From Nannocystis sp. SCPEA4 (GTDB lineage: Bacteria; Myxococcota_A; Polyangia; Nannocystales; Nannocystaceae), in NCBI RefSeq assembly GCF_026626685.1, contig NZ_JAPNJX010000001.1:332752-396751 (forward strand): DNA of 64,000 bases, read 5' to 3'. Both the position numbers and the translations under genes were made by a program. The first letter of the stretch is position 1; each line of letters starts with the position of its first letter. Below the pieces are notes generated by a model. The model was not told where the DNA came from, did no database searches, and saw only the letters and a list, made by a program, of their open reading frames with translations. This document shows, piece by piece, positions 2,830-57,869 of this stretch.

Positions 2830-3199
2830 TCGTGTCCTGTATGCGAAGCATGCGGGCCGTCCTCAGATGCCTGGCGGTCCCGCCCACGATTCCTCATAAC
2901 TCATGAGTGATCAAGCCGGTGCCCCGCATAGCCGTCAGCAGGCCTCATTGGTGAATCTGCAGGATTCGGCCCGCGCGAGAACCGTCGTTCCGGCGCAGGA
3001 AGCACGCGATTCGCCGTCCATGCCGACGGTGATCCACCGCAAGCTGTCGAGCTCGCTCGATACACCTCGGGCAGACGTCACATTTGTTCGACTCGCGCGA
3101 TTCGACGCAACGTCACATCATCGATTTCGCCCGCTCGAGACACGAACGAGGCGCGCACGTCGCCGTGCGCGCCCCGTCACTCGTACCTCGAGCCGTCGA

Positions 3200-4951
<1,752 letters not shown>

Positions 4952-5268
4952 GGCAAGGAAATTCCTGAACGTGGTGACGCCCGTTTCCAGGACGGGCATG
5001 TCGTGCAGCAGCGGCGCGCGCGCAGAACGACGTGCATCAACCGAGCAGGGATTTCGGACTTCGCCGTCGCGATCAAGCGTCCACCGACCTGGTGCCTTCA
5101 AACCACGCCGGACGACAATTGTGGCAAATCTGCGCCCGCAGAGGCGCTGCCGGCGCCCCGCGGCTCGCTCGCTACTCTAGCAACCGAGATTCTTCGATCC
5201 GGACAACACAGGCGCGGACTCCGCCGCACCTGCGGAGACTGCCATGAATCAACTCCATCATCTGTCCT

Positions 5269-12788: not shown

Positions 12789-13841
12789 TCAGTCGACCCC
12801 GCAGTAGCGCAGCGCGCAGCTCGGCGGGGTCGGCAGGCGGTACATGATGAACGGCCCGCAGTTCTGCACGGCGATCGGGGCCTTGAAGTGACAGGTCTCG
12901 CCTTCCCAGTGGAAGCAGACCTCGCGGGCGACCACGCCGTCGGCCTCCGAGGGCTCCTGTCCGTTGAGCCAGCCGGGCGCGTGGGTCCCGCACGAGAACA
13001 TCGGCGGCGCGGTGGTCGGCATGCGCGAGCCCGCCGAGCCGACGAAGCGCGACCACTGGCCCTCGGCCGGCAGGTCGAGGTCGCACTCGACCTCCTCGAT
13101 CTGCGACGCCACGTTGCGGCCCGGCTGCGGCAGCGCCACCGCCTGCCCGCACTCGCCGGGCAGGTTCTCGGTCAGGCAGGCGTTGCAGCCGTCGCCCGCG
13201 GTCTGGTTGCCGTCGTCGCACAGCTCGCCCTCGGCCGTCTGCAGCACGTTGTCGCCGCAGCGGGGCCCGAGCGCCGCGCAGCCGGGCGCGCAGCCCTCGT
13301 AGCTGTTGTCGTTGATCTTGTCGTCGCACACCTCGGTGCCGGCGCGCACGAACCCGTCGCCGCAGGTCGCTTGCTTGCACGTCGACGGGCAGTCGTCGGT
13401 GTCGCTCGAGTTGCCGTCGTCGCACTCCTCGCCGTCCTCGACCACTCCGTTGCCGCAGTCGCTCGGCGGCTCGGTCGTGACGGTGATGGTCGTCACCGTG
13501 ATGGTCTCGGTCGGGAAGGTCGTGAAGGTCGGGTCCGTGAAAGTCGGGTCCGTGATGGTGACGGTCGGCTCGATCGTGTCGGTCGGCTCGATCGTCGTCG
13601 GCGGGTCGATCGTCGTCGGCGGATCGATCGTCGTCGGCGGCAACGTGTCGGTGACCGTCGTCGGCAATGTGTCGGTGACCGTCGTCGGCAGCGTGTCGGT
13701 GATCGTGTCGGTAAGCGTATCGGTGATGGAGGTGGAGAGCGTGTCCGTGGTGTCGACCTTGACCGCGAAGCAGCCCGCGGCGAGGTGCGCAAAAACAATC
13801 GCCCACGTCTCCAACCGCCACCGTCTACAAGCGAGTAACAT
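12789..13841 (-). CDS. secreted lipoprotein with a Thr/Asp/Pro-rich tandem-repeat linker and Myxococcus cysteine-rich repeats
   Basis: Lipobox AHLAAGC, then (TDT[LI]..) repeats of about 90 aa, then CGNGVVEDGEECDDGN...GDGCNAC repeats and a Cys-rich C-terminus. Confidence 0.7.
   Translation of the reverse strand: MLLACRRWRLETWAIVFAHLAAGCFAVKVDTTDTLSTSITDTLTDTITDTLPTTVTDTLPTTVTDTLPPTTIDPPTTIDPPTTIEPTDTIEPTVTITDPTFTDPTFTTFPTETITVTTITVTTEPPSDCGNGVVEDGEECDDGNSSDTDDCPSTCKQATCGDGFVRAGTEVCDDKINDNSYEGCAPGCAALGPRCGDNVLQTAEGELCDDGNQTAGDGCNACLTENLPGECGQAVALPQPGRNVASQIEEVECDLDLPAEGQWSRFVGSAGSRMPTTAPPMFSCGTHAPGWLNGQEPSEADGVVAREVCFHWEGETCHFKAPIAVQNCGPFIMYRLPTPPSCALRYCGVD
13490..13745. repeat. coding tandem DNA repeats (21-24-bp units GTCGGCGG(G/A)TCGATCGTC / GTGTCGGTGACCGTCGTCGGCA) giving the TDT/PTT repeats of the lipoprotein
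   Basis: Direct reading of the plus strand; the protein shows (TDTLPTTV) and (TIDPPT) repeats. Confidence 0.65.
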
Positions 13842-14005
13842 AGGCTTTCAAAGGTACTCGTGCGCCCCGTACCCGTGCAAGGCCGACCCATCGATCAGGC
13901 GCTCCCGGGGCCTTCACCACGCGATCGCGCGCGACTCGTGACGACACCGCTGCGGCCTTTCGGAGTCAGTTGACAGCCGGCGGGCCGTGGCGCATCGAGG
14001 CCTGA

Positions 14006-16141
14006 ATGACGAGGCACACGCACCGCCCATGGTTCGGGGCCGCGCTCGGGCTCGTGTGGTTGGCCGGCTGCCCGAGCAGCCCGACGGCCAACGACACCGA
14101 CGCCGATCCGGTCACGACTGGTAACACGATGTCGTCGCCGACCGGCGCGCCCACCGAGGGCACCGCAGGAGACACCGACGATCCGACCGCCGGCGACCCG
14201 ACCGAGGGCGACGCGGTCGACCCGGGGCGTGTCACCGTGCACCGCCTCAACCGCACCGAGTACAACAACACGGTCAAGGACCTCCTCGGCACCGCGCAGC
14301 GGCCCGCAGACAGCTTCCCGGCCGACGACTTCGGGCTCGGGTTCGACAACATCTCCGACGTCCTCAGCACCTCGCCGCTGCAGGCCGAGCTCTATGAGCG
14401 GGCCGCCGAAGGTCTGATCCTCGAGGCGATGGAGATCCCGATCACCGACCCGGGCACCTGGCAGATCGAGGCCGAGGACGCGCTCGCCTCGGTCGGCGGG
14501 GCCACCGGCGAGGGCTGGAACCTCTACAGCAACGGCGAGGTGTACCAGACCATCGAGCTGCCCTACGACGGCCAGTACAAGTTCAGCGCCCGCGTCTGGG
14601 GCCAGCAGGCCGGCCCCGACCTGCCGCACATGAACCTGACCGTCGATCAGGCCCCGGTGGCGATGTTCGACGTCGAGGCGGTGCAGAACGGCGCGCAGGT
14701 CTACGAGATCACGATCGACGCCACCGCCGGCGTGCACAAGTTCGCGGTCGAGTTCACCAACGACTACTACGACGAGCCGAACATGGCCGACCGCAATCTG
14801 ATCGTCGACTGGTTCAAGGTCGAGGGTCCGATCAACCTGCCGCAGGGCGACAACCCGCTGCGCACGCGGATCATGATCTGCGACCCGGACACCGAGGGCG
14901 AGGAGGTCTGTCTGCGCCAGATCTTGAGCACCTTCACCGAGCGCGCGTGGCGACGCCCGGTCACCGGCGCCGAGCTCGACGCGCTGATGCAGTTCGTCGC
15001 CGACGGCAAGGCGGCCGGCGACACCTGGGAGGCCGGCCTCCGCATCGCCCTGCAGGCCGTGATGGTCTCGCCGTACTTCGTCTACCGCGTCGAGCTCGAC
15101 CCGGCGCCGACCGACCTGACGCCGCACCCGCTCACCGACTTCGAGCTGGCCTCGCGCCTGTCCTACTTCCTGTGGAGCAGCATGCCCGACGACGAGCTGT
15201 TCGCGGCAGCCAGGGCCGGCGCGCTGCAGGACCCCGTCGAGCTCGAGGCCCAGGCCCGGCGCATGCTCGCCGACGACCGCGCTCGCGCACTGATCGACAA
15301 CTTCGCCGGGCAGTGGTGGCTCATCCGCAACATCGCCGTCGCGTTCAAGGACGTCGCCATGTACCCGCAGTGGAACGACGCGATGCGCGAGTCGATGCGC
15401 ACCGAGATGAAGCTGTTCGCCGAGGCGTTCTTCTCCGCCGACCGGGACTTCCTCGAGATGCTGACCGCCACCGACACGTACGTCGACGCCACCCTCGCCG
15501 CCCACTACGGCATCGAGGGCCAGTTCGGGCCCGAGTTCGCCGAGGTCGACTTCGGCGAGCTGCCGTTCCAGGGCATCCTCAACAAGGCCGGCCTGATGAC
15601 GGTGCTCTCGCACGCCGACCACACCTCGCCGGTCAAGCGCGGCAAGTGGGTGCTCGAGAGCCTGCTGTGTCAATCGCCGCCGCCGCCGCCGCCGGGCGTC
15701 GACACCAAGCTCAACCCGATCGAGGGCAAGACGCAGCGCGAGATCCTCGAGGCCCACCGCGACAAGCCCGAGTGCATCGGCTGCCACGTCACCATGGACC
15801 CGCTCGGCTTCGCCCTCGAGCACTACGACCCGCTCGGCGCCTGGCGCGACCTCGACAACGGCCTGCCGATCGACTCCACCGGCACGCTGCCCAACGGCAA
15901 GCCGTTCGCCGACGCGCTCGAGATGCAGGGCCTGATCGCCGCCGAGCCCGAATTCCTGGCCTGCGTCGCCCGCAAGACCTTCATCTACGCCCTCGGGCGC
16001 GCCGTCGGGATCAAGGACACCCCGTACCTCGACGACATCTCGACCGACTTCTCGGGCAACGACCGTCGCTTCTCCGACCTCGTCGTCTCGCTCGTCACGA
16101 GCGACGTGTTCCGCATGCGCCGCGGCGACCCCGCGATGTGA
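14006..16141 (+). CDS. DUF1592/DUF1595/DUF1587/DUF1588/DUF1585-type multidomain lipoprotein carrying a CxxCH motif
   Basis: Lipobox LVWLAGC and the architecture typical of the Planctomycete/Myxobacterial DUF1592 family. CIGCH sits at nt 15773-15787. A DUF1552 partner follows directly. Confidence 0.8.
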   Translation: MTRHTHRPWFGAALGLVWLAGCPSSPTANDTDADPVTTGNTMSSPTGAPTEGTAGDTDDPTAGDPTEGDAVDPGRVTVHRLNRTEYNNTVKDLLGTAQRPADSFPADDFGLGFDNISDVLSTSPLQAELYERAAEGLILEAMEIPITDPGTWQIEAEDALASVGGATGEGWNLYSNGEVYQTIELPYDGQYKFSARVWGQQAGPDLPHMNLTVDQAPVAMFDVEAVQNGAQVYEITIDATAGVHKFAVEFTNDYYDEPNMADRNLIVDWFKVEGPINLPQGDNPLRTRIMICDPDTEGEEVCLRQILSTFTERAWRRPVTGAELDALMQFVADGKAAGDTWEAGLRIALQAVMVSPYFVYRVELDPAPTDLTPHPLTDFELASRLSYFLWSSMPDDELFAAARAGALQDPVELEAQARRMLADDRARALIDNFAGQWWLIRNIAVAFKDVAMYPQWNDAMRESMRTEMKLFAEAFFSADRDFLEMLTATDTYVDATLAAHYGIEGQFGPEFAEVDFGELPFQGILNKAGLMTVLSHADHTSPVKRGKWVLESLLCQSPPPPPPGVDTKLNPIEGKTQREILEAHRDKPECIGCHVTMDPLGFALEHYDPLGAWRDLDNGLPIDSTGTLPNGKPFADALEMQGLIAAEPEFLACVARKTFIYALGRAVGIKDTPYLDDISTDFSGNDRRFSDLVVSLVTSDVFRMRRGDPAM

Positions 16142-16172
16142 ACCACCACCCCAACTTCCCGGAGACATCACG

Positions 16173-17531
16173 ATGCCGCGTCGCTTTTCACTCTCGCGCC
16201 GTACCCTCCTGGGCGGGGCCGGTGCCCTGATCGCCCTACCCTGGCTCGAGGCCATGGCGCCCGCCGGACGGCGGGCTCGCGCGGAGGAGCCCATGGGCCC
16301 GCCGCTGCGCGCCCTCTTCTACTACCTCCCCAACGGGATCCACATGCAGTCGTACACGCCTGCGACCGAGGGCCCGGGCTTCGAGATCACGCCGATCCTC
16401 TCGCCGCTCGTCGACCCGCAGGCGATGGTCGACCTCAAGGGCGACATCCTGGTCCTGACTGGCCTGCAGAACCTGCCCGCAAAGCCAGAAGGCCCGGGCG
16501 ACCACGCCGGCGGCACGTCGGCGTTCCTCACCTGTACGCATGTCACCAAGTCCGAGACCGACATCAACAACGACATCTCGATCGACCAGGTGATCGCCAA
16601 CGCCATCGGCGACGCCACGCCGCACCGCTCGCTGCAGTTCGGGACCGCCAACGGCGCGACCATGGGCAACTGCGACAGCGGCTACAGCTGCGCCTACACC
16701 AGCAACATCTCGTGGGCCGACGCCAAGACCCCGCTGCCCAAGCTGTACGACCCGCAGGTCATCTTCGACCTGCTGTTCTCCGGCTTCGACCCCGAGGCGA
16801 CCGCCGAGGAGCAGGCCAAGCGGCGCGCCAACCGGATCAGCGTCATCGACTACGCGACCGGCCAGGTCGAGTCGCTGCAGACCAAGCTCGGCAAGACCGA
16901 CCGCGACAAGCTCGACCAGTACCTCACCGGCCTGCGCGACCTCGAGAAGCGCCTCACCGCCGAGAACACCGAGGCGGTGTGCTCGCTGCCGGCGATGTTC
17001 TCGGGCGCCTACCCCGACTTCACCACCCACGTCGACCTCATGACCGAGCTGATGGTGCTGGCCTTCCAGTGCGACCAGACCCGCATCATCACGTTCATGC
17101 TCGAGAACGCCGGCAGCTACCGCGACTACTCGTTCATCGGCGCCCAGGGAGCGCACCACGAGATCTCGCACCACATGGACAACCCGGACAACTTCGCCAA
17201 GCTCGAGATCATCGATCGCTGGGAGATGGTCCAGTTCGCCAAGCTGCTGCAGAAGCTCAAGTCGTCGCCCGAGGGCGACGGCACGCTGCTCGACAACTGC
17301 GTGGTGTTCCTGTCGTCCGAGATCAGCGACGGCAACGCGCACAACCACAACAACCTGCCGGTGCTGCTGGCGGGCCGCGCCCAGGGCCAGCTGACGCCCG
17401 GACGCCACGTGAAGTACGGCGACAACCCGCCCCTCGCCAACCTGTTCACCTCGATCGCCGAGATGTTCGACGTGCCCATGGCCGGCTTCGGCGACGACGG
17501 CACCGGCGCGCTGCCGAACCTCAAGGTGTGA
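16173..17531 (+). CDS. DUF1552-family protein with twin-arginine signal
   Basis: MPRRFSLSRRTLLGGAGALIALPWLEAMAP is the canonical Tat signal of DUF1552 proteins, and it is always paired with a DUF1592 gene. Confidence 0.8.
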   Translation: MPRRFSLSRRTLLGGAGALIALPWLEAMAPAGRRARAEEPMGPPLRALFYYLPNGIHMQSYTPATEGPGFEITPILSPLVDPQAMVDLKGDILVLTGLQNLPAKPEGPGDHAGGTSAFLTCTHVTKSETDINNDISIDQVIANAIGDATPHRSLQFGTANGATMGNCDSGYSCAYTSNISWADAKTPLPKLYDPQVIFDLLFSGFDPEATAEEQAKRRANRISVIDYATGQVESLQTKLGKTDRDKLDQYLTGLRDLEKRLTAENTEAVCSLPAMFSGAYPDFTTHVDLMTELMVLAFQCDQTRIITFMLENAGSYRDYSFIGAQGAHHEISHHMDNPDNFAKLEIIDRWEMVQFAKLLQKLKSSPEGDGTLLDNCVVFLSSEISDGNAHNHNNLPVLLAGRAQGQLTPGRHVKYGDNPPLANLFTSIAEMFDVPMAGFGDDGTGALPNLKV

Positions 17532-17562: not shown

Positions 17563-17630
17563 GTTCAGACATGCTCCAAGGAGCATGCCCTTCCGGGCAT
17601 GCTCCTTTGAACATGCCCGGGCGGACAGCT
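17563..17630. repeat. Array of alternating CATG-centred palindromic units (ACATGCTCC aa GGAGCATGCCC ttcc GGGCATGCTCC tttgaa CATGCCC) plus GGACAG
   Basis: Seen directly. Overlapping 9-11-bp inverted repeats form a zig-zag of hairpins. It belongs to a motif family found in all convergent intergenic regions here. Confidence 0.6.
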
Positions 17631-18990
17631 ACGGCTCGGCGAGCTCTTGCCGCGCGACGTCGCCGATCTGCCCGGCCAGCTCCTCGAGCCGGGCGAGGTC
17701 GGGGCCCTCGAGCATGACCCGCAGGCTGGCCTCGGTGCCGGAGTAGCGGACCAGCACGCGGCCGTCGTCGCCGAGCTCGGCCTCCGCCGCGCGCACGGCG
17801 GCGCCGAGCTGCGGCAGGAGGTCGAGCGGGACCTTGCGCGCGACCGGGATCGCGCGCAGCAGCTGCGGGTAGCGCGTCATCACCGACGCGAGGTCGGCCA
17901 GCGCGCGGCCGCTGCGCTGCATGATCGCCAGCACCTGCAGCGCGGCCACCATGCCGTCGCCGGTGGTCCCGTGGTCGAGGAAGACGACGTGCCCCGACTG
18001 CTCGCCGCCGAGGTTGTACGCGCCCTGGACCATCGCCTCGACCACGTAGCGATCGCCGACGGGGGTGCGCACGACGCCGATCCCGTGCCCGGCGAGGCAG
18101 CGCGCCAGGCCCATGTTGGACATCACCGTCGCCACCACCGCGGCCCCGCGCAGGGCCTGGCGCGCGTGCATGTCGAGGGCGCAGATCGCCAGGATCGCGT
18201 CGCCGTCGACGACCGCGCCGCGCGCGTCGCTGAAGACCACGCGGTCGGCGTCGCCGTCGAGGGCGATGCCGAGGTCGGCCCCGTGCTCGACCACCGCGCG
18301 GCACATCGCCTGCGGGTGCACCGCGCCGCAGGCGTCGTTGATGTTGACGCCGTCGGGGCCCGCGCCGATCGCTATCACCGTCGCGCCGAGCTCGCGCAGG
18401 ACCGTGGGCGCGACCTTGTAGGCGGCCCCGTGGGCGCAGTCGACGACGATCTTGAGGCCGTCGAGCTCGAGCGACGACGGGAAGCTGTGCTTGAGGTGCG
18501 TCAGGTAGCGGCCGGCCGCGTCGTCGATGCGCGCCGCCTTGCCGATGTCGCGCCCGCGCGCGACCCGTTCGTCGAGCGCGCCCGGCTCCATCAGCTGCTC
18601 GAGGTGCGCCTCGACATCGTCGGGCAGCTTGAAGCCGTCGGCCGCGAACAGCTTGATGCCATTGTCGGCGAACGGGTTGTGACTGGCGGAGATGACGACG
18701 CCGGCGTCGGCGCGCATCGAGCGGGTGATGTAGGCGATGCCCGGGGTCGGCAGCGGCCCGACGAGCAGCACCTCGGCCCCCATGGCGCACACGCCGGCCG
18801 CCAGCGCCGTCTCGAACATGTAGCCGGACAGCCGCGTGTCCTTGCCGATGACGACGCTGCCGCGCCGACCGAAGTGCGCCGCGACGGCCATGCCCAGCCG
18901 CAACGCGATATCAGGGGTCATCGGCGGGACACCCGCGGGTCCGCGGATCCCGTCGGTGCCGAACAACCGACGCTCGTTCGCCATGCGCAC
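17629..18990 (-). CDS. glmM: phosphoglucosamine mutase
   Basis: [10 protein letters not shown]..., the phosphoserine loop SASHNP and full-length alpha-D-phosphohexomutase domains. Confidence 0.9.
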
Positions 18991-18997
18991 GTCCTTC

Positions 18998-19996
18998 TTA
19001 ATGGCCGCGACTGGCGCCGTCCAGCGGCTTTTCGGCGGGCGGCGGCGGCAGGAGGATGCGCTCCTGAGCTGGCTCCAAGGTCAGGTTGGCCCGCAGCGCC
19101 GGCGGGACGGCCTCGGACAGGCTCAGATCGACCTGCACCGCCCCGACCGGCGCGTCCTCCTGCGGCTTCTGCAGTTGCACGGTCGAGACCACCGCGCTCG
19201 GGATCGCGTCGATCTGGCGCAGCGACGGCACCGGCCCGCGCACCACCGCCGCGACCTTGAGCGGCGCGCCGTACGGCGGTTCCTGGTCGACGGGCCAGGT
19301 CAGCGGGACCTCGTAGCGGCGCTCGCTGACCTTGGGCCGGATCGCCACCGACACGGTGACCTTCGGCACCTCGCCCGGGGCCACGCCGGTGTACTCGGCG
19401 CCCTCGCGCAGTTGGCCGAGCCCGACCACCATCTCGACGTCGGCCGTGGCGCCGCTGACGTCGATCGGATCGGTGTTGAGGTTGGCCAGCTCGCCGACGA
19501 TCTTGCTGCCGCCGTGGACGCGCCAGCGCGGCGGGTCGACGCGCGTCCCGGTGTGCTCGTAGTCGGGGTGGACCAGCCCGCGCACCGCGGCGCTGATCAG
19601 CACCGCGCGCTCGATGACCGGATCGAAGCGGAGGTCGACCTTCTCGTAGTCCATGCCGCGGAAGATCACCCCGGGCGGCATCACGATGGTCGCCGGGTCG
19701 AGCTCGAGCGGCCCCGGCCGCGCGCCCGCGAGGTCGAGCTGGGCGCTGCCGAGGTCGTGGCCCGACAGGCGGTTCATCCGCGCCCACGAGCCGTGCAGCT
19801 CGACCGTCACCGTCTCCGGCAGCTTGGTCAGCAGCACCCGCCGCGGGTCGGTGTTGACCTTGAGCGGGATCGTGAAGCGCCGCGTGACGTCGTCGCGGGT
19901 GAAGATGAAGAACCCGCTGGCGAGGATCAGCGCCGTCAGCTTGGTGAGCAGGTGATTGAACAGCGCCCCGTAGAGCCACCGCAGCGCGCGCGTCAC
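18998..19996 (-). CDS. cdaR: YbbR-domain protein (CdaR-like regulator of diadenylate cyclase)
   Basis: An N-terminal transmembrane helix then repeated YbbR-like beta domains. It sits between cdaA and glmM, overlapping cdaA by 4 nt. Confidence 0.75.
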
Positions 19997-21000
19997 CCCT
20001 CACCTCCCTTGCGCGACAGCGGCGTGAAGTCGGTGACCGACGGCGCGTGGAGGAAGTCGTTGTCGTTCCACTTCTCGTCGGTCGGCGCCGCCCCCTCCTT
20101 GCCGCGCCGCCGCACCGCCGTCATATCGGTCGCGCTCTCGCCGGCCTTGCGCAGGTCCATGTAGCTGCGCGCCGCGCCCTTGGCGACCGCGAGGCTCTCG
20201 CTCGGCGGCGCCTGACGCGACGCCTCGGCCCGCGGTTGCTCGAGCCAGCGGGAGATCCGGGCCTCGAGCTGCTCGGGCGTCAGCGGGTCGGAGATGGCGC
20301 CGCGGTGGACCATGCGGATCTCGCCGCGCTCCTCGCTGAGCACGATGACCAGCGCGTCGCTCTCTTCGCTGACGCCGATGGCCCCGCGGTGGCGGGTGCC
20401 GAACGCCGGGTCGAGGCGGTCGCGCTGGGTGAGCGGGCAGATCACGCCGGCGCGGGCGATCCGCAGGTTCTGGATCAGCACGGCGCCGTCGTGCGTGAGG
20501 TTGATCGAGTACGGGATGAGGAGCGCGACCAGCGTGTCGGCGTGCAGCGAGGCGTCGATCTCGCGGCCGCGGTCGCTGACGACGTCGAGCACGTCGATCT
20601 CGCCCTGCAGGATGAACAGCGCGCCGAGGCGGGCGCGGCTGAGCCGCTCGACCGCCACCACCAGCTCGCTGACGGCGCTGCGGGCCGCGTCGCGGTGGCC
20701 CTGCGGCAACAGGCGCTGGCCCATGTGCAGCAAGATCCGCCGCAGCTCCTGGTGGAACACGACGATGAGGATGATGATGACGTACTCGAGGAAGTAACGG
20801 ACCAGCGCCGCGACCGCGACCATGTCGAGCGCGCTCGCGGCCGCCGCGACGCCGCCGAACACCGCGACCGACAGCAGCACCGGCACCGCCCGCGTGCCCT
20901 GGAGCAGGCGCAGTGCGGCATAGACCAGGATCAGCAGGATCCCGAAGTCGAGCCCGTCGCGCCACGTGAGCGCCTCGATGAAGTCCCGCGGCGTCACCAT
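19993..21000 (-). CDS. cdaA: membrane-anchored diadenylate cyclase (c-di-AMP synthase), CdaA/DacA type
   Basis: Three N-terminal transmembrane helices plus a DAC domain (DGAVLI...GTRHRGAIGVSEESDALVIVLSEERGEI). The start was verified as ATG at 21000 (MVTPRDF...). Confidence 0.85.
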   Translation of the reverse strand: MVTPRDFIEALTWRDGLDFGILLILVYAALRLLQGTRAVPVLLSVAVFGGVAAAASALDMVAVAALVRYFLEYVIIILIVVFHQELRRILLHMGQRLLPQGHRDAARSAVSELVVAVERLSRARLGALFILQGEIDVLDVVSDRGREIDASLHADTLVALLIPYSINLTHDGAVLIQNLRIARAGVICPLTQRDRLDPAFGTRHRGAIGVSEESDALVIVLSEERGEIRMVHRGAISDPLTPEQLEARISRWLEQPRAEASRQAPPSESLAVAKGAARSYMDLRKAGESATDMTAVRRRGKEGAAPTDEKWNDNDFLHAPSVTDFTPLSRKGGEG

Positions 21001-21983
21001 CGCGCTCGCTCGACCTCCTCCGCCTCGCGGCGTGCTGCAGCCGACGCCCGGCGGATCGCCCACGCGACGCGCAGCGCCTCGGCGGTGGGCCCCACGTCGT
21101 GCACACGCACGAGCGCCGCACCGCCGAGCGCCGCCATGATCGCCGCGGTGACGCTGCCGATCAGGCGCTCCTCGACCGGCCGCGGCTTGCCGCCGATGAC
21201 GCCGAGGAACGCCTTGCGACTGGCACCGATGACCACGGGGCAACCTGTCTCTCGCATCAGGTAGTCGGCCGCGCCGACGAGCGCCGCGCTGTGCTCGGCC
21301 GTCTTGCCGAAGCCGATGCCGGGGTCGATGGCGATCCGCTCGGCGGCCACGCCGGCGCGCAGCGCCAGCTCGACCGCCCGACCGAGCTCCGCCGCGACCT
21401 CGGGCAGCACGCGCTCGAAGCGGATGTCGTGCATCATCGTCGCCGGCTCGCCGCGCAGGTGGCCGATCACGAGGCCCGCGCCGGTGTCGGCGGCGACGCG
21501 CGCCATCTCGGGATCGGCGAGCCCGCTGACGTCGTTGATGATCGCCGCACCGGCCGCCATCGCTGCGGCAGCGACCGCGGCGCGCCGTGTGTCGACGCTG
21601 ATCGGCGTGCCCGTCAGCTCCGGATCGGCGACGAGGCCGCGGATCACCGGCAGCACGCGGCGCAGCTCGACGTCGGGCGCCACCGCGGTCGCGCCCGGCC
21701 GCGTCGACTCGCCGCCGACGTCGAGGACATCGGCGCCTTGCTGGCGATACGTGCGACAAAGCCTGGCGGCCACGCTGACGCTCGCGTCGTCGGTCTCCGG
21801 CGCGAGCAGGTTGCCGCCGTCGAAGAAGCTGTCCGGCGTGACGTTGACGATCGCCATCACCCGCGGTGCGTTCACGTCGAGCGCACCACGGGCGTGCACC
21901 CACGCGGGCGCCGGCGCGGGCTCGGGCCGCGCGCCGTCGTCACGGGCGAAGGCGCGGTCGGCGGCGGAGGACATCGCCGCCAT
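20994..21983 (-). CDS. folP: dihydropteroate synthase
   Basis: Pterin-binding domain (NVTPDSFFDGG...DVGGESTRPG...IGFGK). An alternative start at ATG 21857 (MAIVNVTPDSF) is more typical. Its stop overlaps the cdaA start by 7 nt. Confidence 0.85.
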   Translation of the reverse strand: MAAMSSAADRAFARDDGARPEPAPAPAWVHARGALDVNAPRVMAIVNVTPDSFFDGGNLLAPETDDASVSVAARLCRTYRQQGADVLDVGGESTRPGATAVAPDVELRRVLPVIRGLVADPELTGTPISVDTRRAAVAAAAMAAGAAIINDVSGLADPEMARVAADTGAGLVIGHLRGEPATMMHDIRFERVLPEVAAELGRAVELALRAGVAAERIAIDPGIGFGKTAEHSAALVGAADYLMRETGCPVVIGASRKAFLGVIGGKPRPVEERLIGSVTAAIMAALGGAALVRVHDVGPTAEALRVAWAIRRASAAARREAEEVERARW

Positions 21984-21995
21984 GGTAGCGCGGCA

Positions 21996-23384
21996 TCACG
22001 CCAATGACACGCCCGGGTCGCTGTTGTCGCTGTGCCCGCCAGCCGCCCCGCCGCGCCCGGCCGCGAATTGCTTGGCGTCGATCCCGTAGCGGCGCAGCAG
22101 CTTGTGCAGGTACTTGCGGTCCATATCGGCCTCGCGGGCCGCCCGCGAGATGTTGCCCTCGGCCCGCTGGAGCAGCCAGTTCAGGTACGTCTCCTCGAAC
22201 AGCTCGACCGCGCGTTCCTTCTGCTCGCGGAAGGTCAGCGTCGGGTCGAACGCGACCTGCTGCTCGCGCCCGGCGCGCCCGAGGTTGCCCGTGGTGATGA
22301 GGTCGATGACGCCGTCGGGCGAGAGGTAGGCCGAGCGCTCGACGACGTTGCGGAGCTCGCGGACGTTGCCGGGCCAGTCGTAGCCGACCAGGCGGGCCAT
22401 GGCCTCGGGGCCAGGCGCGCGCCACATGCCCGGCGGCAGGCGGCGCGAGAACTGGTCGATGAGCATCGGGATGTCCTCGCGACGGTCGCGCAGCGCCGGC
22501 ACCTCGATGTGGACGACGGCGAGCAGGAAGTACAGGTCCTCGCGGAACTCGCCCGACTTGACCTGCTCCCGCAGCCCGCGGCTCGCGGTCGCCAGCACGC
22601 GGATGTCGACCTCGAGCTCCTCGGTCACTCCGTGTCGCCGGACCTTCCCGTTCTCCAGGGCGCGGGTGAGCTTCGGCTGGAGGTCGGCGGGCAGCTCGCC
22701 GATGTCGTCGAACACCAGCGTGCCGCCGTGGGCGAGCTCGAACGCGCCGCGTCGGTCCTCGTGGCCGAACAGCTCGACCTCCAGTTGTGCAGCGGCCGTT
22801 CCACCGCAGTCGACGACCACGAAGGGGCCGTCGCGCCGCGGCGAAATATCGTGGATAGCCCGAGCCAGCAGAGCCTTGCCGGTGCCTGTCTCGCCGTCGA
22901 GGAGAATGGTCGCCTCGGCGCCTGCGACGCGTTCGAGGACGCCGAAGATCTTGCGCATCGCAAGGCTGCGTCCGCAGACCGGACCGAAGCTGTCGGCTTC
23001 GCTAGGGAGAAGTTCGACACGCGAGTCACGCGGCATGAATCGGACCTGGACCTTGCCGAGTCCGAGAACATCGCCCGGTCGCAGGAACCCGTCGCTGACC
23101 CGCACACCACCGATGAACATGCCGTTCGTCGACTGTTGATCCAGGACGCGATAGCTGTCGCCCTGTCGCCGGATCTCGGCGTGGATCCGGCTCACCGACT
23201 CGTCGGGGAGGACCACGTCGCACTGGCGTGACTTGCCGAGCTGGACGACATCCTGGGTGACATCAATCTCACGGCCGCGGAGCTCGCCGTTCAGGACGAC
23301 CAGCCGAAAACCGGAGTGCCGCATGGGCTCGGCATCGTCCTGGACCACCGTCGAATCCACCGCTGCTTCGATCTCGTGCGCCAT
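21996..23384 (-). CDS. FHA-domain / AAA+ sigma-54-interaction-domain / Fis-HTH transcriptional regulator; the GAFTGA loop appears deleted
   Basis: FHA domain ([22 protein letters not shown]...STNGMF), Walker [46 protein letters not shown]-finger region and a C-terminal Fis-type HTH. The start was verified as ATG at 23384 (MAHEIEAA...). Confidence 0.8.
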
Positions 23385-23494
23385 GTCCTCCACGCTACCA
23401 GGGGGCTCCTCCTGCGGGAAGCACACAACGGCCGGTACAGAGCGTTTGGCGAAGATTGACAGCGTTGAGGTCGCTCGGCCGCAGACAAAAAAAA

Positions 23495-23533
23495 TCGGGG
23501 TGCCTCGGCCCCGAAGCACCCCGAACCTCGCGG
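23495..23533 (-). terminator. Rho-independent terminator (stem CGGGGTGC/GCACCCCG followed by a T8 run on the minus strand)
   Basis: On the minus strand the sequence reads ...CGGGGTGCTTCGGGGCCGAGGCACCCCGATTTTTTTTGT, directly downstream of the 23544 stop codon. Confidence 0.75.
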
Positions 23534-23543: not shown

Positions 23544-24023
23544 TCAGACGTAGAAGTCGACGATGGCCACCCCGCGCTCCGGGGGCTCGGGCAGCGGAGC
23601 CCGCTCGTCGAGCTCGTCAGCGGGCACGCGCGGCAATTCGAGCTCGATCTGCAGCGTCGGAGTCCGCTTGCCCGGGATCTTCTTGCTCGGGACTTGCTTC
23701 TGCTTCTCGAGGGCTGGTCGCATGAACACCTGCCTTTTTCGCCAGAATTCGGGACGCGCTAGCGGGCGGTCTGTCTCAAAGCTCACGAGATCGGCGCTTG
23801 CACCGCCACCCTGCGGGGAGTACCTATCCTCCCCACGAGCGACGTGGTTCGCTCGGCTCGCAGCTCCGACCCTGATGTGCCCACCATCCGGCTCGGAGCG
23901 CCTGAATTCTTGGTTGGCCACCTTACGTTTGAGACTAACGCGGCCACGGATGTTGGCAAGAATTGTCTTCGCGCCGTTTGGCGCCGGGACAGTGTGCGCG
24001 AGGCGTACACCAGCGCCCTGCAT
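23544..24023 (-). CDS. hypothetical 159-aa basic protein in a lower-GC island
   Basis: Open frame with ATG at 24023 and KR-rich composition (KRKVANQEFRR...KQKQVPSKKIPGKRTPTL). Third-position GC is clearly lower than the neighbours. No domain recognised. Confidence 0.4.
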   Translation of the reverse strand: MQGAGVRLAHTVPAPNGAKTILANIRGRVSLKRKVANQEFRRSEPDGGHIRVGAASRANHVARGEDRYSPQGGGASADLVSFETDRPLARPEFWRKRQVFMRPALEKQKQVPSKKIPGKRTPTLQIELELPRVPADELDERAPLPEPPERGVAIVDFYV

Positions 24024-24088
24024 ACGACGGGCGAATTGAGCCCAGGCGCCGCGCACGACCTTGCCGGTCCGCGCCTCCGGCGACAAAC

Positions 24089-24727
24089 TCAGAAGTCGAC
24101 CACGACCCAGCGGGTGCCTTCTCGCTCGAGTCGGGCGACCTCGGCGTTTCCCAGGTCGAGCACCGCCTCGTGGGCGTCCGCGACGATGGGATCGCCCAGC
24201 CGGGCCGCGAGGCGATCGCGGGCCGTCTGCAAGGCGTCGGCATGCTCGCCCTCGGTCCACGCGGCGCGGAGATCGTCTTCCGACAGACCGAGGCGGTAGC
24301 GCTCGGGGGCGAGGCCGAGGAGCACGTCCCAGCGGCGCTGGAGGCTCGCCCGCACCAGGCTCCGCAACGCCGCACGGGGCGTCGACTGGTCGTACACGAG
24401 AGTGGGGTCCTCGCCGAACACCCAGCCGCGCGGCGTCCAGCGGACGTCGATCGGCGAGTCGGCCGCGAGGAAGACGACCGCACGCGGGCGGATCTCCGCC
24501 GGCTTCTTCAGCGACTTGGCCCAGCGCTGGCGCGTCGCCTTGTCGCCGAGGATCGCCGCATAGTCGACGCGAGCGCGCGCGCCGACGAGCACGTGACTCG
24601 ACAGCGCCTTCGCATCGCCGCGACGAACCGCACCGGCGGCTGTCTCGCTGGCGCGCGCGAGGCCGCGGACGTCTCGCTGTGCGCAGGACGCGAGCAGCAG
24701 CGCCACGCACACCGCGTGGATCTTCAC
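24089..24727 (-). CDS. hypothetical lipoprotein
   Basis: Lipobox signal MKIHAVCVALLLASCAQ. Its start overlaps the fabZ stop (ATGA). Confidence 0.55.
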   Translation of the reverse strand: MKIHAVCVALLLASCAQRDVRGLARASETAAGAVRRGDAKALSSHVLVGARARVDYAAILGDKATRQRWAKSLKKPAEIRPRAVVFLAADSPIDVRWTPRGWVFGEDPTLVYDQSTPRAALRSLVRASLQRRWDVLLGLAPERYRLGLSEDDLRAAWTEGEHADALQTARDRLAARLGDPIVADAHEAVLDLGNAEVARLEREGTRWVVVDF

Positions 24728-38127: not shown

Positions 38128-39687
38128 TCAGGTGAACGCCCACGCCAGGACGACGGCGAGCAGCAGCGCGGCGATCACCAGCCAGAAGCCGCTGTCGGTC
38201 CGCTTCGGCGCGGGAAGCTCCGGCGGCTTGGGCACCGGCGGACGCGACTCGGCGGCCGGCGACGGCAGCGACACGAGCGGCGTGACCGGGGGCTCGGGGG
38301 CCGGCGCCGCAGCTGCCGGCGCTTCCACTTTCTTCTCTTCACGCTCGCGCACATCGGAGCGGCTCGCCGCCGGGATGCTCTCGCTGACGCTCGGCTCGAT
38401 GACGATGTCGGGCCGCGACGGCGAGCCGCGGCGCACGATGCTGTCCTCGGTGAGGACGTGCACGCGGCGCAGCCCGCTGTTGGAGCGCCCCGACGGATCT
38501 TGCGGGTTGGCGAAGCCGCCGGCGCTGACCGCCGCGAAGGTGCCCGAGGGGATCGAGCTCGAGCGCAGCGCCGCCACGCTGTTGGGCCGGATCGAGCCCT
38601 CGCCGAACAGCAGATCTTCGAGGCCCATGACCGGCTGCTCGACCGGCGCCGAGGCGGTGACCTTCGGCGGCTCCCTGACCGAAACGCCAGGTGCCGAAGG
38701 GCCTGTTGGAACGGACAGGGTCTCGAGGACAGGTGGCACCGCGACCGGCGGCGGCGCCAACGGCAGCGGCGCCGAGTTCGACACCGGCGGCTTGGTGTTG
38801 GGCCGCGGCGGCGGAGGCGGCGGCGTGGCCGGGGTGAGATCGATGATCGGCTCGGGCGCGGCCTCGGCGGTGCCGGCGAGCGCGAGCGACTCGAGCCGCC
38901 GCACCAGCTCGGCGCCGCCCTGCGGACGGGCCGACGGGTCGGCGGACAGGCTGGCGCCGATCAGCGCCCACAGGCCGGCCTGCAGCCCCGGCGGCTCGGC
39001 GGCGCGGAGGGCCGCGGCGCCGCGCAGACCGGTGGCGAACTCCATGAGCGCGACGCCCCACGCGTAGGTGTCGGACAGCGGCGTGAAGCCGCCGCCGGCC
39101 AGCACCTCGGGCGCGAGCAACGACTGATCGACGGTGCTCCACCGCCGCTCGAGCTCGGCGCGAGCGCACAGCGGGGCGAACCCGTGCTGGAACGCCGCCG
39201 GGCCGCGCGGACCGACGAACACCGCCTCGCCCGCGAGCATGCCGTGGACGCGGTCGCGGGCGTGCAAGGTCGCGAGGGCGCGCGCGAGCTGACGCGCGAG
39301 CCGCTGCAGCTCGTTGGCGAGGTCCGACGAGCGCGGGCCGTCGTCCATGTCGCGCAGCGCGAACGCCCCCTGCAGCGGGTCGTAACAGACGACCACGCGA
39401 TCGCCGTCTTGACCGACGAACACCTGGGGCACGAGCGAGGAGTCCTGCAGCTCGCCGAGCTCGCCGAGCTCGCGCACGAAGGCGGCGCGGGCCTCGGGCG
39501 TGGGCAACAGCGCAGCGTCGAGGACACAGGCGCGAGCCGGCTCGCCGCTCTGGGTGTCGAGGACCGCGAGCGTGGGGCCGAAGAGCTGCACGCCGGTGTT
39601 GGCGGGCTCCTCGCGCATGAGCTCGAAGCGCCCGCACAACATGGTGTGGGTCTCGTCCGAGTTCGAAGTGCCGGGGCTCAACTCCAT
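38128..39687 (-). CDS. tail-anchored protein with a degenerate Ser/Thr protein-kinase-like domain (probable pseudokinase) and a Pro-rich linker
   Basis: It has a kinase-like fold (APEVLAGGGFTPLSDTYAWGVALMEFATG) but lacks the VAIK lysine (ARACVLD) and a canonical HRD/DFG (LHARDRVHGMLAG). A C-terminal transmembrane helix (FWLVIAALLLAVVLAWAFT) is the last feature. Confidence 0.55.
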   Translation of the reverse strand: MELSPGTSNSDETHTMLCGRFELMREEPANTGVQLFGPTLAVLDTQSGEPARACVLDAALLPTPEARAAFVRELGELGELQDSSLVPQVFVGQDGDRVVVCYDPLQGAFALRDMDDGPRSSDLANELQRLARQLARALATLHARDRVHGMLAGEAVFVGPRGPAAFQHGFAPLCARAELERRWSTVDQSLLAPEVLAGGGFTPLSDTYAWGVALMEFATGLRGAAALRAAEPPGLQAGLWALIGASLSADPSARPQGGAELVRRLESLALAGTAEAAPEPIIDLTPATPPPPPPRPNTKPPVSNSAPLPLAPPPVAVPPVLETLSVPTGPSAPGVSVREPPKVTASAPVEQPVMGLEDLLFGEGSIRPNSVAALRSSSIPSGTFAAVSAGGFANPQDPSGRSNSGLRRVHVLTEDSIVRRGSPSRPDIVIEPSVSESIPAASRSDVREREEKKVEAPAAAAPAPEPPVTPLVSLPSPAAESRPPVPKPPELPAPKRTDSGFWLVIAALLLAVVLAWAFT

Positions 39688-39702
39688 GAGACGCTCCCGC
39701 GG

Positions 39703-57696: not shown

Positions 57697-57869
57697 GCCT
57701 GGAGAAGGCTTGCCAGGGTCGCGCGCGTGGGATAGACCCGCGCTCGCCCGCGATTCGCCCCGTCAGGGTACCCGTCCGGCTCGGACCGCGTCAATTGAGC
57801 GTCGCCATTGCACAGTCAGGCTCGTCGCCGCCGCCCTCCGCGCCCGAGCAATCCGGGTCTGCCGGGCCC

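What the first reader, a model, noticed from the sequence alone, without database searches (positions are those of the whole stretch)
21996..23384. FHA-domain bacterial enhancer-binding protein whose sigma-54-contact GAFTGA loop is deleted
The AAA+ domain has Walker A ([15 protein letters not shown]), ELFGHE, Walker B ([13 protein letters not shown]) and R-finger regions. Between GHE and GGTL it reads only [10 protein letters not shown], which aligns to the post-loop GRFEQAD of NtrC. The roughly 9-residue KGAFTGA(NT) L1 loop that contacts sigma-54 is therefore absent. 

By analogy with GAFTGA-less EBPs such as HupR, this regulator probably cannot activate sigma-54 holoenzyme. It may act on sigma-70 promoters or as a repressor, or sequester partner EBPs. 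The N-terminal FHA input links it to Ser/Thr phosphorylation, typical of myxobacterial Nla-type regulators. It sits immediately upstream of folP-cdaA-cdaR-glmM in the same orientation.
Basis: partly seen in the sequence, partly recalled or inferred. Interest (0 to 1): 0.6.

Follow-up and report, generated by a model that had tools for sequence, protein, structure and literature searches.

The report
Sigma-54 activator that lost its activating parts
A Nannocystis (myxobacterial) regulator descended from sigma-54 activators has lost its sigma-54-contact loop and two ATP-hydrolysis residues yet is under very strong purifying selection, so it is a working regulator that most likely acts without sigma-54.

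Summary
The gene is on the minus strand (21996-23384, 462 aa: FHA, EBP-type AAA+, HTH). It has a clean 9-residue gap exactly where ZraR, FlrA and FleQ carry GAFTGA.

The Walker B catalytic Glu is Asp (FDD). The trans-acting arginine finger is Leu (YFLL instead of YYRL).

It is not an error or a pseudogene. Two other Nannocystis genomes encode it: the RBIL2 copy has the identical protein despite 80 nucleotide differences, and the FL3 copy differs at a few residues. dN/dS is about 0.01, against 0.1-0.26 for its neighbours.

Orthologues across Nannocystaceae all precede folP-cdaA-cdaR-glmM and share a near-invariant HTH. Their L1 loop is either canonical GAFTGA or decayed to 7-32 residues, in at least three separate lineages.

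GAFTGA-intact loci lie next to a divergent Glt/Nfs-like envelope operon. GAFTGA-less loci instead follow bamA-skp-skp-fabZ, a lipoprotein gene and a conserved 59-aa microprotein gene.

Best reading: an "atypical EBP" in the sense of NtrX, VpsR, TyrR and HupR. It would be a sigma-54-independent, probably hydrolysis-dead, FHA-controlled DNA-binding regulator. Its targets and mode of action are untested. It is a new variant of a known kind.

The parts
21996..23384 (-). CDS of the FHA-AAA+-HTH regulator (462 aa), a degenerate or 'atypical' EBP
   Evidence: Translation. Pfam domains. The RBIL2 copy (L001) encodes the identical protein with 80 nucleotide differences, 76 of them at third codon positions, and the FL3 copy (L002) differs at a few residues. 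dN/dS 0.008-0.024.
23031..23297 (-). N-terminal FHA domain (aa 30-118). The 'GR' phosphothreonine-binding Arg is Lys (LGKSR). SxxH and NG are present.
   Evidence: Pfam FHA 59.4 bits and Yop-YscD_cpl 64.6 bits. Alignment.
22503..22976 (-). EBP-type AAA+ core (Sigma54_activat, aa 137-294)
   Evidence: Pfam 149.5 bits. Aligns to NtrX, ZraR, FleQ and NtrC1.
22872..22895 (-). Walker A, GETGTGKA. Intact, but the near-invariant Asp after the Lys is Ala (A171).
22746..22763 (-). L1 stub HEDRRG: the site of the 9-residue deletion that removes GAFTGA
   Evidence: HMMER alignments to solved EBPs. Orthologue alignment. AF2 mini-hairpin at residues 207-212.
22698..22721 (-). Walker B, TLVFDDIG: the catalytic Glu (PspF E108 / NtrC1 E239) is replaced by Asp227
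   Evidence: The role of E108 is taken from PMC7175178.
22515..22547 (-). [11 protein letters not shown]: the arginine-finger position (NtrC1 R299 / PspF R168) is Leu287. The upstream Arg281 is retained.
   Evidence: R299 = R168 is taken from PMC7175178.
22581..22601 (-). Sensor-I segment RVLATAS (canonical R(V/I)IAAT(H/N))
22299..22490 (-). AAA+ lid (aa 299-362), including the sensor-II motif GNVRELRN. Almost invariant across the family.
   Evidence: Pfam AAA_lid_14 64.9 bits. Conservation.
22071..22157 (-). C-terminal Fis-type [32 protein letters not shown]. Near-invariant in GAFTGA-intact and GAFTGA-less orthologues alike.
   Evidence: Pfam HTH_8 17.7 bits, below the 22-bit cut-off. Invariant columns.
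23392..23400 (-). Extended -10 element TGGTAGCGT, ending 7 nt before the ATG. Putative sigma-A-type promoter giving a leaderless or near-leaderless mRNA.
   Evidence: TGnTAGC[GCT]T lies 6-10 nt before the ATG/GTG start in 18 of 20 orthologous loci. Function is inferred.
23485..23524 (-). Intrinsic terminator (13-bp stem plus T8) separating the upstream microprotein gene from the regulator
   Evidence: Conserved in Nannocystis. Analogous stem plus T-run in L084-L087.
23544..23723 (-). Conserved 59-aa microprotein gene (…LELP…RGVAIVDFYV*). Present immediately upstream of every GAFTGA-less orthologue examined.
   Evidence: Family of 271 hypothetical proteins, with only Nannocystaceae and unclassified myxobacterial names.
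17629..21983 (-). Co-directional downstream genes: folP (20994-21983), cdaA (about 19993-20940), cdaR/YbbR (18998-19996), glmM (17629-19080). Conserved with the regulator in all 20 orthologous loci.
   Evidence: Pfam. Synteny.

Best explanation
The gene encodes a functional transcription factor that descends from a canonical FHA-type sigma-54 enhancer-binding protein but no longer works as one.

In the Nannocystis lineage it has lost four things:
- the L1 GAFTGA loop that contacts sigma-54 region I;
- the Walker B glutamate that activates water for ATP hydrolysis;
- the trans-acting arginine finger;
- the canonical sensor-I motif.

It keeps Walker A, sensor II, the lid and an invariant Fis-type HTH.

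The most likely mechanism (inferred, not shown) has three steps. The protein still binds nucleotide but hydrolyses it poorly or not at all. Its FHA domain gates oligomerisation or DNA binding in response to a phospho-Thr (or other) partner. It then regulates sigma-A/sigma-70-type promoters as a repressor or class I/II-type activator, as described for NtrX, VpsR, TyrR, HupR and the Rhodobacter and Caulobacter NtrC proteins.

It is transcribed from its own extended -10 promoter as the first gene of a conserved unit, regulator-folP-cdaA-cdaR-glmM. Its retained function is therefore probably tied to envelope-precursor and c-di-AMP housekeeping, not to the Glt/Nfs-like envelope operon that accompanies the GAFTGA-intact orthologues.
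For: Shown:
- A 9-residue L1 deletion.
- DE to DD and Arg finger to Leu. The roles of these residues are taken from PMC7175178.
- Zero amino-acid changes against 80 nucleotide changes versus Nannocystis sp. RBIL2. dN/dS is 0.008-0.024, against 0.09-0.26 for BamA, FabZ, GlmM, FolP and CdaA in the same locus. This is strong purifying selection on the degenerate form.
- The HTH and lid are near-invariant across 70 orthologues whatever the loop state.
- Of 130 aligned sequences, 123 are family members: 28 canonical (GAFTGA, DE, R), 59 with GAFTGA lost or partial but DE and R kept, 35 that have additionally lost DE and/or R, and P0116 (GSFTGA kept, finger Met). The other 7 are outgroup paralogues, all canonical. 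Apart from P0116, whose family membership is uncertain, no GAFTGA-intact member has lost DE or R. This order of decay is what is expected if hydrolysis served only sigma-54 remodelling.
- GAFTGA-less loci fall into at least three bootstrap-supported groups, in both the EBP tree and the FolP+CdaA+CdaR tree.
- The best PDB sequence and fold match is the atypical EBP NtrX.
- A canonical GSFTGA FHA-EBP paralogue coexists in the same MAG as a degenerate orthologue (L015 with L005). The loss is therefore gene-specific and not a loss of the sigma-54 system.
- No -24/-12 promoter lies near the gene.

Literature precedent: atypical EBPs act at sigma-70 promoters, and VpsR has an ND Walker B and no ATPase activity.
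Against: - No target, binding site or activity was observed. I found no conserved palindrome or k-mer upstream of the gene.
- Asp at the Walker B Glu position could retain some hydrolysis.
- Caulobacter NtrC, which is GAFTGA-less, still needs ATP hydrolysis, so 'hydrolysis-dead' is an inference.
- Co-transcription with folP-glmM is inferred only from 12-nt spacing and conserved synteny.
- The FHA phosphothreonine-binding Arg is Lys, so kinase coupling is uncertain.
- The trees are neighbour-joining trees on linked genes only.
Confidence: 0.7

Rival explanations
1. The protein is a 'poison' or modulatory subunit. It co-assembles with GAFTGA-intact FHA-EBP paralogues into mixed rings. There, its missing arginine finger and L1 loop would damp or tune sigma-54 activation, making it an anti-activator rather than a stand-alone transcription factor.
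For: Canonical FHA-EBP paralogues coexist in related genomes (L015). The oligomerisation surfaces and lid are highly conserved. A subunit lacking a trans-acting Arg finger would cripple its neighbour's active site (established AAA+ knowledge).
Against: The paralogues are only about 42% identical. The protein keeps its own invariant DNA-binding domain. The same HTH is kept in GAFTGA-intact orthologues, which argues for a shared set of own DNA targets. Hetero-oligomeric EBPs are rare.
Confidence: 0.1
2. The degenerate AAA+ pocket has been repurposed as a ligand sensor, for example for a cyclic dinucleotide such as the c-di-AMP made by the co-operonic CdaA. This would parallel c-di-GMP binding by FleQ and VpsR. 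The regulator would then couple nucleotide second-messenger levels to transcription.
For: The derived substitutions cluster around the nucleotide site: A171 next to the Walker A Lys, F225, D227, the sensor-I changes and L287. Linkage to cdaA-cdaR-glmM is conserved in all 20 loci. There is precedent from FleQ and VpsR.
Against: This rests on analogy only. GAFTGA-intact orthologues share the cdaA linkage, so linkage does not explain the degeneration. The FleQ c-di-GMP-binding motifs were not examined. No data on ligands.
Confidence: 0.12
3. It is an artefact or a decaying pseudogene: an assembly error, frameshift or recent inactivating deletion in a gene on its way out.
For: Several catalytic motifs are degenerate at once.
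Against: The ORF is intact. The protein is identical in Nannocystis sp. RBIL2 despite 5.8% nucleotide divergence, and near-identical in N. punicea FL3. dN/dS is about 0.01, the lowest in the locus. The same loop is found in metagenomic proteins. The AF2 model is confident.
Confidence: 0.01

Closest known systems
Atypical (GAFTGA-less) EBPs: Brucella/alphaproteobacterial NtrX, Vibrio cholerae VpsR, E. coli TyrR, P. putida PhhR, R. capsulatus HupR and NtrC, Caulobacter NtrC, M. xanthus HsfA
   Same: An EBP-type AAA+ domain with the L1 sigma-54-contact loop deleted or degenerate. The DNA-binding domain is retained. Walker B is non-consensus, as in VpsR (ND). NtrX is the best PDB match by sequence (195 bits) and by fold.
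   Different: The input domain is FHA, not REC or ACT/PAS. The arginine finger is also lost. It is not an NtrX orthologue (NCBIfam NtrX 247.6 bits against a cut-off of 600). No paper in the searched library describes an FHA-type atypical EBP.
Canonical FHA-domain sigma-54 EBPs of Myxococcota (the 'Nla'-type regulators of Myxococcus xanthus) and the GAFTGA-intact orthologues of this same family (e.g. L009, L010, P0057)
   Same: The same FHA-AAA+-HTH architecture. 65-72% identity to the intact orthologues. Identical HTH and lid. The same position upstream of folP-cdaA-cdaR-glmM.
   Different: GAFTGA, the Walker B Glu and the Arg finger are all missing here. The intact orthologues sit next to a divergent Glt/Nfs-like operon, which is absent from this locus and from the whole 64-kb window.
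PspF / NtrC1 / ZraR (structural reference EBPs)
   Same: The AAA+ fold superposes at 1.6-3 Å rmsd over about 230-240 residues. Walker A and sensor II are conserved.
   Different: A 9-residue L1 deletion. Asp at the E108/E239 equivalent. Leu at the R168/R299 equivalent.

Membership tests
Sigma-54-dependent bacterial enhancer-binding proteins (functional bEBPs) | EBP-clade AAA+ domain (Pfam PF00158 Sigma54_activat) | tested here: met
   149.5 bits against a cut-off of 20.2, covering aa 137-294 and profile positions 2-168 of 168.
Sigma-54-dependent bacterial enhancer-binding proteins (functional bEBPs) | L1 loop carrying GAFTGA (the sigma-54 region I contact) | tested here: not met
   A 9-residue gap at GAFTGA in alignments to ZraR, FlrA, FleQ, NtrC1 and PspF. 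The AF2 model shows a 2+2-residue stub.
Sigma-54-dependent bacterial enhancer-binding proteins (functional bEBPs) | Walker B hhhhDE with catalytic Glu (PspF E108) | tested here: not met
   VFDD: D226-D227.
Sigma-54-dependent bacterial enhancer-binding proteins (functional bEBPs) | Trans-acting arginine finger (NtrC1 R299 / PspF R168) | tested here: not met
   Leu287 in FREDLYFLL.
Sigma-54-dependent bacterial enhancer-binding proteins (functional bEBPs) | Walker A GxxGxGK and sensor II Arg | tested here: met
   GETGTGK (aa 164-170) and GNVRELRN (aa 339-346).
Sigma-54-dependent bacterial enhancer-binding proteins (functional bEBPs) | A cognate -24/-12 (GG-N10-GC) promoter under its control | tested here: inconclusive
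   No convincing TGGCAC-N5-TTGC site within the orthologous loci or in the intergenic regions. Targets could lie elsewhere in the genome.
Sigma-54-dependent bacterial enhancer-binding proteins (functional bEBPs) | ATP-dependent open-complex formation with sigma-54 holoenzyme | not testable with these tools
   Requires biochemistry.
Atypical, sigma-54-independent EBP-like regulators (NtrX, VpsR, TyrR, HupR, R. capsulatus and Caulobacter NtrC) | EBP-type AAA+ domain lacking a functional GAFTGA while retaining a DNA-binding domain | tested here: met
   The class is defined in the literature.
Atypical, sigma-54-independent EBP-like regulators (NtrX, VpsR, TyrR, HupR, R. capsulatus and Caulobacter NtrC) | Regulates sigma-70-type promoters independently of rpoN | not testable with these tools
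   No expression or binding data. Only its own promoter looks sigma-A-type.
NtrX (NCBIfam NF051870) | Equivalog score at or above 600 bits, with an N-terminal receiver domain | tested here: not met
   247.6 bits, and the match covers only the AAA+ and HTH part. The N-terminus is FHA, not REC.
FHA-domain signalling proteins (phosphothreonine readers) | FHA fold with the conserved Gly-Arg, Ser-x-x-His and Asn-Gly phosphothreonine-binding residues | tested here: inconclusive
   Pfam FHA 59.4 bits. SRIH and TNG are present. The 'GR' motif is GK (K51) in at least 90% of the family. Phosphopeptide binding was not tested.

The most novel reading that the evidence does not exclude
This family may be a natural series in which a sigma-54 activator turns into a sigma-54-independent regulator several times over.

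On this reading, the conserved core job of all members is sigma-54-independent. It would be carried out by the invariant HTH and lid, under FHA control, probably on the envelope-precursor and c-di-AMP unit folP-cdaA-cdaR-glmM.

Sigma-54 activation would be an accessory function. It is kept only in genomes where the gene sits next to a Glt/Nfs-like envelope machine.

When that cluster is lost, GAFTGA decays first, followed by the ATPase catalytic residues. The Nannocystis protein would be the end state: a nucleotide-binding pseudo-ATPase, possibly working with the co-occurring 59-aa microprotein.
Probability: 0.3. Interest if true: 0.7.

Novelty: new variant of a known kind. Interest (0 to 1): 0.5.

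Why it matters
GAFTGA-less "atypical EBPs" have been known for decades, but only as isolated cases with receiver or ACT/PAS inputs. This one differs in three ways.
- It has an FHA input.
- It has lost the sigma-54 loop, the catalytic glutamate and the arginine finger together.
- It is nevertheless the most strongly constrained gene in its locus.

Its syntenic orthologues span every stage, from fully canonical to fully degenerate. The loop state tracks the presence or absence of a neighbouring Glt/Nfs-like gene cluster. That makes the family a ready-made comparative system for asking how an ATP-driven sigma-54 activator becomes an ordinary transcription factor, and which residues become dispensable in which order.

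There is also a practical point. Public annotations call these proteins "sigma-54-dependent/interacting regulator", "QseF" or "AcoR". For the degenerate members that is very probably wrong, and it would distort sigma-54 regulon reconstructions in Myxococcota.

Tried and rejected
1. Sigma-54 promoter search. I used a weighted GG-N10-GC scan on the window region and on 12 orthologous loci, then scanned the intergenic regions of the GAFTGA-intact loci. Only noise-level hits appeared, and none was conserved.

2. Conserved inverted repeats upstream of the gene, as possible autoregulatory sites. No half-site and spacer combination was shared by more than 2 of 9 lineages.

3. Shared 8-mers (up to 1 mismatch) within 130 nt upstream of the -10 element in 15 loci. 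The best motif occurred in 11 loci. Shuffled controls gave a mean of 11.1 and a maximum of 13, so there is no signal.

4. Rfam scan of the whole window: nothing.

5. The idea that the divergent Glt/Nfs-like operon is the sigma-54 target of the intact orthologues. This is not supported. All 7 such loci carry a conserved sigma-A-type promoter, TTGAC(G/T)-N18-TA(C/G)G(A/C)T, and no -24/-12 element. The association with GAFTGA therefore remains unexplained.

6. The longer GTG-23519 start. Rejected, because it would begin inside the terminator.

7. The 388-aa ORF at 23544-24710. Rejected as a gene. Codon-phase analysis shows that only 24089-24727 (lipoprotein) and 23544-23723 (microprotein) are coding.

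8. The PexR paper (M. xanthus GAF-EBP) turned out to describe a canonical EBP and is not relevant.

9. A single loss of GAFTGA followed by drift. Rejected. 0 of 100 bootstrap replicates gave a clean GAFTGA+/GAFTGA- split, and conflicting groupings have 91-99.8% support. The caveat is that these are neighbour-joining trees on linked genes.
Full report
**1. What is there**

The ORF lies on the minus strand, 21996-23384 (462 aa). The plus-strand translation of these coordinates is full of stops.

The start is the ATG at 23384.
- The N-terminus MAHEIE is conserved in Nannocystis orthologues.
- An intrinsic terminator (23524-23485) lies about 100 nt upstream.
- An extended -10 element, TGGTAGCGT (23400-23392), ends 7 nt before the ATG.

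Pfam finds four domains:
- FHA, aa 48-110.
- Sigma54_activat, aa 137-294, 149.5 bits.
- AAA_lid_14, aa 299-362.
- A sub-threshold HTH_8, aa 393-433.

The window is high-GC (about 70%) core chromosome of a Nannocystis species. The protein is identical to that of Nannocystis sp. RBIL2 and nearly identical to that of N. punicea FL3. The upstream microprotein is 100% identical to one from Nannocystis sp. SCPEA4.

**2. The observation**

HMMER alignments to solved EBPs place a clean 9-residue gap exactly where ZraR, FlrA and FleQ have (K)GAFTGA. The sequence reads ELFGHE|[14 protein letters not shown].

The best PDB hit is Brucella NtrX, which is itself GAFTGA-less. This holds by sequence (195 bits) and by fold.

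An AlphaFold2 model built on 71 orthologues is confident in this region (pLDDT 96-98). It shows only a 2+2-residue mini-hairpin where the L1 β-hairpin should be.

- Walker B is VFDD. The catalytic Glu, equivalent to PspF E108 and NtrC1 E239, is Asp227.
- The trans-acting arginine finger, NtrC1 R299 = PspF R168, is Leu287 (FREDLYFLL against FREDLYYRL).
- Sensor I reads LATAS rather than (I/V)AAT(H/N).
- The near-invariant acidic residue after the Walker A lysine is Ala171.

The roles of E108 and of R299/R168 are taken from the bEBP review PMC7175178.

Of the few positions where the query departs from at least 85%-conserved family columns, most surround the nucleotide pocket.

**3. Not an artefact, not a pseudogene**

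The same 10-residue connector occurs in two other Nannocystis genomes and in three metagenome-derived proteins.

Against Nannocystis sp. RBIL2, the 1389-nt gene has 80 nucleotide differences and no amino-acid difference. 76 of the 80 are at third codon positions.

Nei-Gojobori dN/dS is 0.008 (RBIL2) and 0.024 (FL3). The corresponding values for FolP, CdaA, CdaR, GlmM, FabZ, the two Skp proteins, BamA and the lipoprotein in the same locus are 0.09-0.26. The degenerate regulator is the most constrained gene in its neighbourhood.

**4. The family**

About 120 close homologues (59-94% identity, apart from two 50-51% outgroup paralogues) and 20 genomic loci were examined. The sequences with organism names come from Nannocystaceae: Nannocystis, Enhygromyxa, Plesiocystis, Pseudenhygromyxa and strain ST9.

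In every locus the regulator directly precedes folP-cdaA-cdaR-glmM. These are therefore positional orthologues.

The HTH ([29 protein letters not shown]) and the lid are nearly invariant throughout.

The L1 segment, in contrast, is hypervariable. In the 130-sequence alignment, 123 sequences are family members and 7 are outgroup paralogues, all canonical.

| State | Family members |
|---|---|
| Canonical: KGAFTGA, DE, Arg finger | 28 |
| GAFTGA lost or partial (connector 7-32 residues), DE and Arg finger kept | 59 |
| GAFTGA lost or partial, and DE and/or the Arg finger also lost | 35 |
| GSFTGA kept, Arg finger Met (P0116) | 1 |

- The third group includes the Nannocystis clade (DD plus R→L).
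- Its sister clades have DD plus R→M or R→N, with half-decayed loops such as PGGFAGA and TGPFSG.
- Only one GAFTGA-intact sequence has a degenerate finger: P0116, at 59% identity and of uncertain family membership.

The implied order of decay is loop first, catalytic residues afterwards. That order is expected if ATP hydrolysis in this family served only sigma-54 remodelling.

**5. How many losses**

I built bootstrapped neighbour-joining trees of the regulator and, independently, of FolP+CdaA+CdaR. Both place the GAFTGA-less loci in at least three groups:

| Group | Support (concatenated 4 genes) |
|---|---|
| {window, L001-L005, L011} | 100% |
| {L084, L085} with GAFTGA-intact L010 | 91% |
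| {L008, L086, L087} with GAFTGA-intact L006, L007, L081 | 99.8% |

A clean GAFTGA+/GAFTGA- split was never recovered.

Regaining GAFTGA is implausible, so this indicates at least three independent losses. Two caveats apply: the method is a distance method, and all markers are physically linked.

**6. An unexpected correlate**

Loop state tracks the upstream context without exception in the loci I could read.

GAFTGA-less loci (13 of 13):
- The upstream order is bamA-skp-skp-fabZ (no fabZ was called in L087), then a lipoprotein gene, then a 56-70-aa microprotein gene (…LxLP…RGVAVIDFYI*), then a terminator.

GAFTGA-intact loci:
- Six loci have a divergently transcribed operon of at least 8 genes. 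One further contig matches by gene sizes. One locus (L006, short flank) shows only the operon's promoter.
- Two of the operon's genes are OMP_myx_plus β-barrel paralogues (TIGR04565, 62.9 and 102.2 bits against a cut-off of 60).
- The others include a 669-aa GltC-like TPR protein (99.8 bits, below cut-off), a TPR protein of about 1060 aa, and a GltE-like TPR protein (93 bits, below cut-off).
- Together this is a Glt/Nfs-like envelope module. For the gene families see PMC3169522.

The operon has no homologue anywhere in the 64-kb window.

I expected this operon to be the sigma-54 target of the intact orthologues. It is not obviously so. All seven loci carry a conserved sigma-A-type promoter, TTGAC(G/T)-N18-TA(C/G)G(A/C)T, and no -24/-12 element. 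The association is strong but remains mechanistically unexplained.

The simplest evolutionary scenario is repeated deletion of the Glt/Nfs-like cluster, followed by relaxation of selection on GAFTGA. I could not test this with the flanks available.

**7. Is the sigma-54 system still present?**

The MAG that carries a degenerate orthologue (L005) also encodes a paralogous FHA-EBP with canonical GSFTGA, DE and Arg finger (L015). In addition, sigma-54-type promoters are reported as conserved in Nannocystineae (PMC12754779). The decay is therefore gene-specific.

**8. Mechanism**

Shown:
- The protein cannot present a GAFTGA loop.
- It lacks two residues required for efficient hydrolysis in every studied EBP.
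- It is under intense purifying selection.
- It retains an invariant DNA-binding domain.

Inferred:
- It is a sigma-54-independent DNA-binding regulator of the atypical-EBP type. It probably binds nucleotide but hydrolyses it poorly, and its FHA domain gates assembly or DNA binding.
- There is literature precedent. R. capsulatus NtrC and HupR, TyrR, PhhR, NtrX, M. xanthus HsfA, VpsR (Walker B ND, no ATPase) and Caulobacter NtrC act at sigma-70 promoters as activators or repressors.
- Its own gene has an extended -10 promoter 6-10 nt before the start codon in 18 of 20 loci. This suggests a leaderless mRNA heading the regulator-folP-cdaA-cdaR-glmM unit. folP starts 12 nt after its stop codon.

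I found no operator motif, so activator versus repressor, and the identity of the targets, remain open.

The FHA domain has SxxH and NG, but Lys replaces the canonical 'GR' arginine in the whole subfamily. Kinase coupling is plausible but not established.

**9. Comparison with known systems, and novelty**

It works like the atypical EBPs and passes their defining sequence test.

It fails three defining features of functional sigma-54 activators: GAFTGA, the Walker B Glu and the Arg finger. It should therefore not be filed as one, whatever the public names say ('sigma-54 interacting', 'QseF', 'AcoR').

It is not an NtrX orthologue (247.6 bits against a cut-off of 600, and FHA instead of REC).

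I found no paper describing an FHA-type atypical EBP.

My rating is a new variant of a known kind. What is new:
- the FHA input;
- the triple degeneration under strong constraint;
- the graded, repeated decay across syntenic orthologues, tied to the presence or absence of a Glt/Nfs-like cluster.

Interest is moderate (0.5). The single-gene observation is ordinary for the field. The family-wide pattern is a useful natural experiment.

Noticed in passing
window 23544-23723 (-), plus L001-L005, L008, L011, L013, L084-L087: A conserved microprotein gene of 56-70 aa (…LxLP…RGVAVIDFYI* at the C-terminus) with its own intrinsic terminator lies 126-243 nt upstream of every GAFTGA-less orthologue examined (13 of 13). 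It is absent upstream of the GAFTGA-intact ones. A profile search finds 271 'hypothetical' proteins with no Pfam domain. The only names attached are Nannocystaceae or unclassified myxobacterial MAGs. At least 14 further hits share their longest-contig length with GAFTGA-less regulators. Function unknown; it is a possible partner of the regulator.
   Followed up: partly
L007, L009, L010, L081/L088, L082, L083 (upstream of the regulator, opposite strand): GAFTGA-intact orthologues are divergently paired with an operon of at least 8 genes resembling the Glt/Nfs envelope machines: two OMP_myx_plus β-barrel proteins, GltC-like and GltE-like TPR proteins, and a TPR protein of about 1060 aa. The operon is driven by a conserved sigma-A-type promoter, TTGAC(G/T)-N18-TA(C/G)G(A/C)T, not by a -24/-12 promoter. 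Why GAFTGA retention tracks this cluster is unexplained.
   Followed up: partly
window 23392-23400 (-) and the equivalent position in 18 of 20 orthologous loci: An extended -10 element, TGnTAGC(G/C/T)T, lies 6-10 nt upstream of the ATG/GTG start. This implies a leaderless or near-leaderless mRNA for the regulator in both GAFTGA-intact and GAFTGA-less lineages. Several database gene calls for orthologues start too far downstream.
   Followed up: partly
window about 23900-23990 (-): A strongly conserved non-coding block is shared by all five Nannocystis loci, upstream of the microprotein gene: GCGAAGACAnnTCTTGCCA…GGCGTTAGTCT…AAGGTGGCCAACCAAGAATTCAGG. It looks like a promoter (TTGCCA-N16-TAGTCT) followed by a conserved 5' leader. 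There is no Rfam match. It is specific to the genus Nannocystis.
   Followed up: partly
window 24089-24727 (-): The 212-aa ORF between fabZ and the microprotein gene is a real gene: codon-phase periodicity is clear and the lipobox is LLASC. It is conserved (51-94% identity) in the GAFTGA-less loci whose upstream flank was compared by BLAST (L001-L005, L008, L011, L013) and has no Pfam or NCBIfam family. The overlapping 388-aa ORF (23544-24710) is spurious.
   Followed up: yes
regulator aa 192 (window 22809-22811) and aa 51 (window 23232-23234): Two subfamily-wide oddities are also present in the GAFTGA-intact orthologues and in the outgroup paralogues. The 'switch asparagine' of the EBP glutamate switch (PspF N64) is Asp (VVVDCGG). 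The FHA 'GR' arginine is Lys (LGKSR).
   Followed up: no
window 56341-57762 (-) and 38128-39702 (-): The window also encodes a second FHA-domain protein with N-terminal double zinc ribbons, and a weak Ser/Thr-kinase-like protein (Pfam E = 1.3e-6). These are possible components of FHA/kinase signalling, and neither is adjacent to the regulator.
   Followed up: no
window 14006-17531 (+); 1085-5176 (-) and 12789-13847 (-): A DUF1585/1587/1588/1592/1595 (PSD/PSCyt) protein paired with a DUF1552 protein, the gene pair typical of Planctomycetes, sits just beyond glmM. Three large secreted proteins with DUF4215 Cys-rich repeats are also present, one with a uromodulin-like D8C domain.
   Followed up: no
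Homologous-protein output, (P0011, P0078, P0084 and others): Public annotations name GAFTGA-less members 'sigma 54-interacting/dependent transcriptional regulator', 'QseF' or 'AcoR'. These names are very likely functionally misleading.
   Followed up: no
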